A stretch of DNA of 64,000 nt from Gracilinanus agilis (taxonomy: Eukaryota), in the NCBI RefSeq assembly GCF_016433145.1, contig NC_058131.1, positions 44,692,159 to 44,756,158 on the forward strand, read 5' to 3'. Both the position numbers and the translations under genes were made by a program. Of this stretch, positions 2,871-5,800 are shown one piece after another. Every line of letters starts with the position of its first letter. The first letter of the stretch is position 1. The notes beneath the pieces were generated by a model. That model did not search any database and had not been told where the DNA came from. It saw nothing but the letters and a program-made list of their open reading frames with translations.

Positions 2871-5800
2871 ACCCCAAGAAGCATTTATTAAACGCCTGCT
2901 TTATGCCAGATCTAAGGGAAGAGCCCCTGCCCCCAATGGGCTTACTTTACACTGATTAGAAGTTTTCCTTCGCATAGTAGTGACAATTTATATAGCATTT
3001 TACGGGCGAAGCTCTTTGCTTGAAGCAGACCTTTAAGTGTGACTCGATGAAGCTCCAAATAAGTGTAAGAGATGGACCTTCGACCACAAGCAGCGACAAG
3101 TCTAGTGGAGGAGATGCAGTAGGTAGACAGATGGTAGGCATAACAGACTTTGGAAACAGTGAGCACTGCCAAAGTAAAAATTGTAGACCAGGAACTTTGC
3201 AAACCTTAGCGCTAAGTAAACTTTAGCACTTGGTATTATCCAGGATATTTCTGTATTGTGTACTGATGTCGAGGAAGCTAATAAATAATAATATAATAAA
3301 TAATAAACAATAGTAGTGCAATTATAAGCTGCTTGAGGGTGCAGAGAAGACTTCTATTTGTATTCCCAGTGCTTTGCATAATGCCTAATGAGTAGGCTTC
3401 TGTATGTGCTGCTCAGTGGATTATGTTGCTAGGAGGAGTATTGGATTAGGGCACAGGGAGATCTGAGTTCCAATAATGCTTCATATATCAATTGTGGCAG
3501 CTACTATCTCAGATGCTAGTTGTTCGTATTACCAATTCTAGGAATTTGTAATACCACCATCATTACATTATATATCAGCTTCCTCTCCATCAGTAAACAA
3601 TATACTTAAATCTAGAATATCATTAGCTAACATTTACATAGCACTTTAAGGTAGGCAAACCCCTTGACATTCGTCATGTGTAAAATGAAGATAATAATAG
3701 CAGAAAGTTGTTGGGAGGAAGTGAGATTTTATATATATATATATATATGTTGCAAACCTTGAAGAGCCATATTGATACTATAGAACTAGACGATAATTTA
3801 GTGAGTGGGTGGGGACTCCTAAATGCTGCCTGATACAGATTAAAATGTAATTAGCAAAAATACACAGATAATATTAATGTGTGGTTTTCTAAGTCAAGAT
3901 CTGCTGGTAGACACAGTTTCTGTTTGAATTTGATTCCACTGCTCTAGATTAACTCCATAATTTGCCAGATCAAGAAAGTACAAGTTAGAAAGGCTTTGGG
4001 TATAAGCCTGGTGAATGATTCTACTACCTCTAGCTAGGTTTGGAGAGGCTTACCAGGTAAGGCCCAGGGTGGTTTTGTTCACAGCAACCTTTAGAAAACA
4101 TTTACCAAGTCAGAGAGTGGTTGTGATCTGCATGGATAAAAGAAATGTTCATATGGATGAAATCCCAGATTATAAAAGTAATTGTTGGAAAAATCTGGAT
4201 ATCACAAGGAAAACCAGTCATTATTTTATAGTCATTATAAACTGAGGTTCTTAATCAGGTCCATGGACAGGTTTTAAGGGATTCTTGAACTTGAATGGAG
4301 AAAAACATATTTCTTTATTTTCACTAACCTCTAACCAAAGTTTAGCTTTTCCTTCAATTATGGATGTAGGCAACAAAGCACTATTCCGAGATGCGGTCCA
4401 TAAACTTCACCAGACTCCCAAATGGGTTCATGACATAAAAAAAGGGAAGAACTTGGTATATTTGGCAGGTGGGAGGCAGAGGCTGCAGAAGGTAGCCTGT
4501 GTCTTGGCTTTTAGGTAAATCCCTGACAATATGTTTTTGCAGAAGCGGGCCCAGGAAGCAGCAGTGATCCTTGGAGGTGGAGGCCTGATCTTCACCTCCT
4601 ACCTGACAGCAGTAGGAGATGAGCACTTCTATTCCCAGTACTTGATGCCTGTGTTACAGAGGCTGGTAGACCCAGAGCTGGCTCACAAGCTCACCATTCG
4701 CTGTATCGCAATGGGACTCCTCCCACGCTCAGCCCTCCCAGATTCCAGCATGCTGGTATGTACACTCTGGGTATGAGGAGGGAGGGGGAAATACTCCCAT
4801 TGCACCCAACTAGGGGTCGGACTTGGTGGAAGCTGTGATCATAGTTGGAAATTCATGAGTCCCCAGATTAGGCAGTGAAGGTACCTTCTTGTATCCCATT
4901 TGTTCCTTTTGCCAAATGGAGGGGTTCTATGTTTTAATAATGTATAGGGCTGAAGAGATGCTTGGAGCAGAACTAACTTAAATATATACACACATATACA
5001 GGGATATACCCATATGAGATGTGTAGGTATATGTATATTGTGCTCATGCATGTCTGCATACAACACATATATGTAAGTATGTACATGTGCATATATGCAT
5101 AGTGTAGCCTCTTCCTAATATTGTCCTTCGATACCTGTCAGAAGATTGTCTGCTTTTGGTATTTCATTAAGGAGCTGAACTTCCCTTTAATGGGTTCTAG
5201 ATAGAGTTAAACCAAAGAGAACTTGATAATAAAGAGTGTTGTAGTAAGGTTTCATTGTATGACTGGAATCACTAGAATGAGAAGATCTTGTCCATCAGGC
5301 ATGTTTGGTGGTCACAGAGAATCCTTGGGGTGTAATAATTAGATTAAATCTACACTGCCCATCTTTAGATTTAATTAGCAAAGGTGAGAACATCTCCAAT
5401 TTTGGGAGATCTGTAGTCCTCGTGTGCTAGAGTGAGTGACAAATCAGAACTGACTGACTGCCCTCTAGGCAGTCCTAAGAGAACCGTCTGTTGTGATTGG
5501 ACATGTACTCTAGCACTCTAGCACACATGGGTTACAGACCTCCCAAAATTGGAGATGTTCTCACCTTTGGTGATTAAATCTAAAGATTTAATAGTGTAGA
5601 TTTAATCTAATTATCACAGGGGACACCAGTGCCCCAGGGAGCCTTTAGAGGAATGTTGGGGTCTTAGTAGAAAGGAGTGGACAAGATGACACCTAGAATG
5701 AGCAGGCCTGCAATTTCAATTTAATTCAATTTGCTAATCATTTATTAAGCACCTCCTATACTCAGTTATGGCACTAAATGTTGAGGATACAAAAGGAGTC

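What the first reader, a model, noticed from the sequence alone, without database searches (positions are those of the whole stretch)
5331..5618. 288-bp fold-back mini-element made of two identical (U3) LTR ends, with a 4-bp TSD - possible unrecognised integrase-mobilised element class
Seen: the element begins TG, ends CA and is flanked by GGGG on both sides. The left arm (5331-5434) and right arm (5514-5618) are inverted copies, about 13 differences in 105 bp. Both arms match the U3 START of the ordinary solo LTR at 48304-48913, which also has a 4-bp TSD and whose other end is unrelated. The left part follows that LTR to its CCAAT box (gattggaca about 5495-5503), then switches at a short ctctagca duplication into the inverted copy. 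TATA, R, U5, PBS and PPT are all absent. Each arm keeps different ancestral bases found in the solo LTR (gccc in the left, tcacc in the right), so both derive from one ancestor. Knowledge: retroviral integrase needs only two att ends and leaves a family-specific TSD; normal proviruses have one U3 end and one U5 end. Inference: a fold-back/template-switch reverse-transcription product with two U3 att ends was integrated as a unit, giving a MITE-like LTR derivative. If several copies share the junction, it is a non-autonomous family that cannot use normal reverse transcription. It would also put a roughly 100-bp hairpin into DHODH pre-mRNA.
Basis: partly seen in the sequence, partly recalled or inferred. 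Interest (0 to 1): 0.8.

Follow-up and report, generated by a model that had tools for sequence, protein, structure and literature searches.

The report
Retroviral LTR copy-back hairpin insertion
A 288-base piece of old retroviral DNA in a mammalian intron has the same viral end on both sides, most likely a folded-back copying error that the virus's integrase inserted anyway; it would matter more if many such copies exist, which could not be counted here.

Summary
The structure is real. Window 5331-5618 is the first ~183 bases of an ERV1-like LTR followed by an inverted copy of its first 104 bases. Both termini are the U3 tip of the solo LTR at 48304-48913, and GGGG flanks both sides as a direct repeat (0.5% by chance). 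It lies in a DHODH intron. The arms differ by 8 point changes and one 5-column template-switch cluster, so this is old and no assembly artefact. The anatomy is that of a copy-back defective genome. Best reading (0.45): a plus-strand reverse-transcription product folded back, ran off its own U3 end, and integrase inserted it by two U3 ends. Rivals: a chromosomal double template switch in a normal solo LTR that kept its duplication (0.2; the left tip matches the U5 tip at the one telling base), a propagating family with a hairpin mini-LTR (0.17), an inverted dimer with central deletion (0.1). Copy number and the empty site, the decisive tests, could not be run: no vertebrate genome is searchable here, and the window holds one copy.

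The parts
5327..5330 (.). left copy of the 4-bp target-site duplication (GGGG)
   Evidence: chance 0.52%
5331..5434 (+). left arm: U3 positions 1-104 of the LTR family, starting TG; position 4 matches the U5 tip of the solo LTR, not its U3 tip
   Evidence: 89 identities, 14 mismatches, 2 gap columns against the solo LTR
5435..5513 (+). single-copy loop: U3 positions 105-183, with the reversed CCAAT box (ATTGG) at 5496-5500
   Evidence: 53 identities, 15 mismatches, 2 gap columns over 105-173; 6 of 10 over 174-183; motif
5504..5518 (.). junction zone; best parse joins U3 183 to inverted U3 104 at 5513/5514; parses at 173 and 194 score lower
   Evidence: scores 48, 42.5, 41; short inverted matches listed
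5514..5618 (-). right arm: inverted copy of U3 positions 104-1, ending CA
5573..5592 (.). perfect 9-bp hairpin private to the right arm; accounts for 5 of the 13 arm differences as one later template switch
   Evidence: 1 of 1024 five-mers completes this stem
5619..5622 (.). right copy of the 4-bp target-site duplication (GGGG)
48304..48913 (-). ordinary 610-bp solo LTR of the parent family (TG..CA, CCAAT, TATAAA at 48691-48696, AATAAA at 48425-48430, ATGG on both sides); the only comparator
4543..4755 (+). DHODH coding exon upstream of the element (exon 2 by inspection)
   Evidence: E 2e-24 to PDB chain 3u2o_A
8329..8528 (+). DHODH coding exon downstream of the element (exon 3 by inspection)
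   Evidence: (PF01180, E 2.1e-23)

Best explanation
A retroviral copy-back product inserted by integrase. Shown: the sequence is U3(1-183) followed by inverted U3(104-1), with exact U3 tips at both ends and a 4-bp direct flank of the same length as the parent LTR's. Inferred: (1) plus-strand synthesis started at the polypurine tract, which defines U3 base 1; (2) near U3 183 the nascent strand left its template and primed on itself or on a second plus strand near U3 96-104; (3) it ran off the 5' end of that strand, which gives an exact second U3 tip with no need for homology; (4) a second plus strand completed the duplex; (5) integrase joined both U3 ends in concert and repair left GGGG twice; (6) the arms then drifted about 4% each and the right arm took one short template switch. 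The product is a dead end with no TATA box, primer site or polypurine tract. It may be unique or a sporadic by-product of this ERV family. No host function is indicated.
For: Both ends stop exactly at the LTR tip and the flanks are direct, not inverted. No LTR remnant lies in 600 bp on either side (4 tests, 61-133 of 200 shuffles as good). The layout matches the formal definition of a copy-back genome (PMC6524942, passages). Reverse transcriptase extends self-primed strong-stop DNA in vitro (PMC6088434, passages). Attachment sites are sufficient for integration (PMC12789967, passage). A cassette with a 21-nt U3 end on both sides was inserted in zebrafish embryos by HIV-1 integrase about as well as the two-LTR design, scored by fluorescence (PMC7240061, section 9). 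One-ended integrations finished by host enzymes usually give much longer duplications or deletions (PMC5041404, passages and Discussion), so a family-length duplication points to a concerted reaction. A marsupial ERV1 solo LTR of 589-711 nt has 4-nt duplications (PMC4408412, section 8).
Against: The left tip has the U5-type base at position 4; this model must call it a chance transition, 1 of 6 left-private changes. The best-scoring junction (183/104) shows no pairing at the switch; pairing needs the CTAG register plus an 8-base slip. The self-priming reported is for the minus strand, is suppressed by nucleocapsid and was not detected in endogenous reactions; I found no report of it on the plus strand. 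The step that opens the hairpin into a duplex is pure inference. Extra bases at a U3 end lower processing (PMC13332604, passage). A rare one-off is unlikely to fall in a given 64-kb window, which favours many copies. Only one comparator, 81-86% identical, was available.
Confidence: 0.45

Rival explanations
1. Chromosomal double template switch in a normal minus-strand solo LTR. Replication entered the U5 tip, jumped to the U3 tip through the short terminal inverted repeat, copied U3 to about 183 in reverse, then returned near U3 104 (order 1-3-4-2). About 500 bases were replaced by about 180, and the duplication is inherited from the ordinary insertion.
For: The first 5 bases of the element equal the reverse complement of the solo LTR's U5 tip, while the right arm and the solo LTR's U3 tip differ from them at position 4. 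The right arm carries a template-switch cluster, so the process acts on this sequence. Template switches make inverted repeats in mammalian genomes (PMC7954356, passages; PMC8794818, abstract).
Against: The evidence is one base, in arms that differ at 8 of 100. The jump spans the whole LTR on 4 of 5 matching bases and must land within a few bases of its far end. The copied piece (about 180) exceeds the maximum of 128 (median 12) in the great-ape set, though that method is built for short events. No clear R/U5 remnant: the one weak match reached 11 of 300 and 20 of 1000 shuffles, and the LTR's own tip gave 138 of 1000.
Confidence: 0.2
2. A propagating non-autonomous family. The 288 bp is the solo LTR of an ERV-derived element whose U5 end was once replaced by an inverted U3 tip, so many copies share one junction; less likely, it is moved as DNA like a Ginger miniature.
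For: Sampling: a many-copy family is far more likely to be met in one window than a one-off (inference). It keeps a CCAAT box and has ATTAAA about 40 bases before its end. Size, TGT ends, long inverted arms and a 4-bp duplication fit Ginger miniatures such as the 252-bp Ginger2-1N1_NV (PMC2836005, parts 1-2 of 5).
Against: One copy in the window (profile search: 3 strong hits, all known). No TATA box. The target is neither CCGG/CCGT nor AT-rich as for Ginger1 and Ginger2. Human Ginger traces are domesticated genes, not repeats (PMC5753468, passages). No such family appeared in the listings of 8 literature searches.
Confidence: 0.17
3. Two cDNAs joined tail to tail were integrated by their outer U3 ends (or two LTRs inserted side by side in opposite orientation), and the long palindrome later lost its centre asymmetrically.
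For: It gives exact U3 tips and one duplication. Unequal arms around a short spacer are what palindrome resolution leaves (recalled, not checked in a paper).
Against: It needs two rare events and loss of at least 900 bases. The two-insertion version needs the second LTR to land in the first one's duplication. No remnant in the flanks.
Confidence: 0.1
4. One-ended integration: integrase joined one U3 end, and a host polymerase extended the broken end on the viral DNA in the opposite orientation before repair.
For: Described for ASLV and HIV-1, including viral sequence appended in either orientation (PMC5041404).
Against: Such junctions usually carry long duplications or deletions of host DNA; here the second end is exact and the duplication has the family length.
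Confidence: 0.05

Closest known systems
ERV1-type solo LTR (parent family; local copy 48304-48913)
   Same: TG..CA ends, 4-bp duplication, U3 1-183 at 81% identity; 4-nt duplications reported for a marsupial ERV1 solo LTR
   Different: No TATA box, R or U5; the second end is an inverted U3 tip; 288 against 610 bp. The family name could not be looked up (no Dfam or Repbase here).
Copy-back defective viral genomes of negative-strand RNA viruses
   Same: Same layout: 5' end to a breakpoint, then the complement of the strand's own 5' end, giving a stem (104) and a loop (79) (PMC6524942)
   Different: DNA from a retroelement, fixed in a chromosome; cannot be amplified by a helper polymerase as those genomes are
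Aberrant proviruses from one-ended integration (ASLV, HIV-1)
   Same: Truncated viral DNA joined to viral sequence in the opposite orientation (PMC5041404)
   Different: Here both ends are exact and the duplication has the normal length
Ginger1 and Ginger2/TDD DNA transposons and their miniatures
   Same: TGT termini, inverted repeats of 40-270 bp, 4-bp duplication, integrase-like chemistry (PMC2836005)
   Different: The arms are LTR U3 sequence; target differs; no transposase hit in 275 open frames scanned
Short-range template-switch mutations (four-point model)
   Same: Creates an inverted repeat with a spacer; explains the 5-column cluster in the right arm
   Different: The whole element would need a copied piece of about 180 and a jump of about 600 bases, beyond the reported range

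Membership tests
ERV solo LTR | TG..CA termini with a family-length target duplication | tested here: met
ERV solo LTR | U3-R-U5 order with TATA box and a distinct U5 end | tested here: not met
   no TATAAA or AATAAA; second end is inverted U3
ERV solo LTR | assignment to a named ERV1 family | not testable with these tools
   no repeat library; motif searches of supplements found nothing (4 files with 1 unread; 4 of 17 files)
Copy-back defective genome | 5' end to breakpoint i, then complement from j to base 1, loop longer than 5 | tested here: met
   i about 183, j about 104; definition
Copy-back defective genome | made by the viral polymerase before insertion | tested here: inconclusive
   exact tips favour it, position 4 of the left tip opposes it
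Copy-back defective genome | RNA genome amplified by a helper virus polymerase | tested here: not met
   chromosomal DNA of LTR origin; it works like one in layout only
Ginger miniature (MITE) | TGT termini, long inverted repeats, 4-bp duplication | tested here: met
Ginger miniature (MITE) | target preference CCGG/CCGT (Ginger1) or RTATAY (Ginger2) | tested here: not met
   target is GGGG; one site only
Ginger miniature (MITE) | many copies and a cognate transposase element with the same ends | not testable with these tools
   one copy in the window; no vertebrate genome to search
Chromosomal template-switch rearrangement | ancestral unrearranged LTR at the orthologous site | not testable with these tools
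   no related genome on hand
Chromosomal template-switch rearrangement | microhomology at both switch points | tested here: inconclusive
   4 of 5 bases at the tip; 4-5 base matches near the inner junction

The most novel reading that the evidence does not exclude
This is one of many: either ERV reverse transcription repeatedly yields short two-U3 copy-back DNAs that integrase inserts in the germ line (an unrecognised class beside solo LTRs, with clustered but different junctions), or a non-autonomous family spreads with this hairpin as its LTR. Either would be a natural bridge from LTR elements to inverted-repeat elements of the Ginger kind, and a route that places ready-made 100-bp RNA hairpins in introns.
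Probability: 0.27. Interest if true: 0.75.

Novelty: new variant of a known kind. Interest (0 to 1): 0.42.

Why it matters
If the best reading holds, it is a germ-line fossil showing that a retroviral integrase inserts a natural DNA with two U3 ends and that copy-back products, known from RNA viruses, also arise in reverse transcription. If it recurs, repeat annotation has been splitting such elements into two LTR fragments, and a simple genome search would reveal a new class and test how inverted-repeat elements can arise from LTRs. If it is a single chromosomal rearrangement, it is a curiosity.

Tried and rejected
Assembly or read fold-back artefact: rejected, the arms differ at 8 of 100 columns plus a cluster. 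Chance inverted repeat: rejected. Inversion running into host DNA: rejected, the flanks are direct. Further copies in the window: none (BLAST; nhmmer, next hit E 0.21). Known RNA family: 0 Rfam hits in the window at gathering score. Coding remnant of integrase, reverse transcriptase or transposase nearby: none among 141 open frames of 45 aa or more below 16 kb and 134 of 72 aa or more above it; shorter frames were not scanned. Faster change in the left arm (6 against 2 events): not significant, p 0.29. A weak match of the right arm to LTR 400-445: marginal and not shown by the LTR's own tip; set aside. The bacterial promoter scan is not applicable. One search translated the exon one base out of frame; one search used the right frame. 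The prokaryote, phage and plasmid collections were not searched because they hold no vertebrate DNA. The opossum repeat survey of Gentles 2007 (recalled) is not held, so I could not see whether this family is described there. Supplements: one file unread and 13 of 17 unread; either could hold opossum or devil LTR sequences.

Full report
Observation. Window 5331-5618 begins TG, ends CA and has GGGG on each side. A BLAST of the region against the window gives two matches to one other locus, the minus-strand LTR at 48304-48913: 5331-5503 at 81% and 5519-5618 at 86%, both ending exactly at base 48913. So the ends are set by homology, not chosen to fit the duplication. That LTR has ATGG on both sides, a reversed CCAAT box, TATAAA at 218 and AATAAA at 484, which fixes 48913 as the U3 tip. 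A 4-bp direct match around a random 288-bp interval occurs in 0.52% of 200,000 draws. Among 175,023 TG..CA intervals, 914 have such a flank, and this one ranks first for terminal inverted matches, 24 of 25. The RNA fold is -166 kcal/mol, z -21.9, with a longest unbroken helix of 30 pairs.

Setting. Pfam finds DHO_dh exons on the + strand from 8329 to about 15540 (5 of 141 open frames). The exon at 4543-4755 matches PDB DHODH chains (E 2e-24; 44 of 71 residues identical to 3u2o_A, counted by eye). The element therefore lies in the intron 4756-8328, intron 2 by inspection. Further along are a trypsin-family frame, a DIM1 frame and an NTPase frame (3 of 134 frames), the order DHODH-HP-TXNL4B-DHX38 that I recall from mammals. 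I did not verify that the host is an opossum.

Anatomy. The arms differ at 13 of 105 columns: 8 point changes in 100 gapless columns (K2P 0.086; 95% interval of the raw distance 0.035-0.152) and one 5-column cluster. The cluster is private to the right arm and turns a 4-bp stem into a perfect 9-bp hairpin at 5573-5592; 1 of 1024 five-mers would do so. It is best read as one later template switch. Six point changes are private to the left arm, one to the right, and one column differs in all three; the imbalance is not significant (p 0.29). Against the solo LTR the left arm has 14 mismatches and 2 gap columns, so about 7 substitutions and 2 gaps are shared by both arms. The arms thus come from one molecule or one subfamily; the data cannot tell which. 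Scoring 1,320 single-junction models, the best follows the LTR to 183 and joins the inverted arm at 104 with no gap (48, against 42.5 for a switch at 173 and 41 at 194). The element is U3(1-183) plus inverted U3(104-1). Nothing clearly matches R or U5, and the flanks hold no LTR remnant. No second copy is in the window.

Mechanism. This layout is the formal definition of a copy-back genome (PMC6524942, passages). In reverse transcription the plus strand starts at the polypurine tract and copies U3 first (PMC3187697, passages). A plus strand that folds back and runs off its own 5' end makes a second exact U3 tip for free. Reverse transcriptase does extend self-primed strong-stop DNA, shown for the minus strand in vitro and suppressed by nucleocapsid (PMC6088434, passages). 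Attachment sites suffice for integration (PMC12789967, passage); concerted-integration assays use a single end oligonucleotide (PMC11054761, passages); and a cassette with 21-nt U3 ends on both sides was inserted in zebrafish embryos, scored by fluorescence only (PMC7240061, sections 6 part 1 and 9). One-ended integrations repaired by the host mostly leave long duplications or deletions (PMC5041404, passages and Discussion). I give this route 0.45. Its weak points are the inferred step that opens the hairpin into a duplex, the lack of pairing at the best junction, and the left tip.

Rivals. The first five bases of the element equal the reverse complement of the solo LTR's U5 tip, while the right arm has the U3-type base at position 4. 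That is what a chromosomal double template switch in a normal solo LTR would leave, with the duplication inherited. It rests on one base, and needs a copied piece of about 180 bases where the great-ape survey found a median of 12 and a maximum of 128 (PMC7954356, passages): 0.2. A propagating family is favoured by sampling, since one window seldom catches a one-off. It is not barred mechanistically, because the 288 bp could be a solo LTR in its own right (CCAAT box, ATTAAA at position 243): 0.17. An inverted dimer with later central deletion gets 0.1, one-ended integration 0.05.

Known kinds. It is derived from an ERV1-type LTR (4-nt duplications in a marsupial ERV1 solo LTR: PMC4408412, passages and section 8) but fails the U3-R-U5 test for a solo LTR. 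It works like a copy-back genome in layout and is not a member of that class. It resembles Ginger miniatures in ends and duplication length but not in target or origin (PMC2836005, parts 1-2 of 5; PMC5753468, passages). Eight searches for a precedent showed none in their listings; two returned no paper, and none of the 20 listed of 386 held 'U3-U3'. The library lacks most subscription papers and there is no Dfam or Repbase here, so an existing entry is not excluded.

Host effect. The hairpin would form in DHODH pre-mRNA, but the same intron holds an inverted SINE pair of 138 nt at 83%, and the arms have drifted freely. No function is indicated.

Verdict. A real, old and unusual LTR derivative: a new variant of a known kind. 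Interest 0.42. The bold reading, a recurrent class or family of two-U3 elements, has probability 0.27 and would deserve 0.75. One genome search and one orthologous alignment would settle it; neither could be run here.

Noticed in passing
window 48868-48902 (solo LTR positions 12-46) and both arms: The U3 tip of this LTR family has its own stem (10 of 11 pairs in the solo LTR; 7 of 1000 shuffles as good, 2 and 4 of 1000 in the arms). Found after the fact; it may mark a fold-back-prone or structured end.
   Followed up: partly
window 5573-5592: A clean example of a short template switch completing a hairpin inside the right arm.
   Followed up: yes
window 6616-6753 and 7085-7222: Inverted SINE pair, 138 nt at 83%, 331 nt apart, in the same DHODH intron; a second source of double-stranded RNA.
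   Followed up: partly
window 6561-6743 and 31719-31900: Two SINE copies 96% identical over 183 bases, so a young SINE family is present.
   Followed up: no
window 27306-27530 and 27730-27811: A tandem repeat array appears on both sides of a SINE, as if the SINE inserted into a minisatellite.
   Followed up: no
window 36185-37030 (+), 39631-39882 (-), 54702-54995 (+): Trypsin-family, DIM1 and NTPase frames; probably haptoglobin, TXNL4B and DHX38 by recalled gene order. The solo LTR would lie in a DHX38 intron.
   Followed up: partly
window 5563-5601 against solo LTR positions 400-445: Weak gapped match of the right arm to the 3' part of the LTR (20 of 1000 shuffles); not shown by the LTR's own tip (138 of 1000); probably chance.
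   Followed up: yes
window 628-778: A run of 151 N: the assembly has a gap here, 4.5 kb from the element.
   Followed up: no
window 25590-25631 and 26548-26589: A 42-base direct repeat at 98% identity about 960 bases apart, not examined.
   Followed up: no
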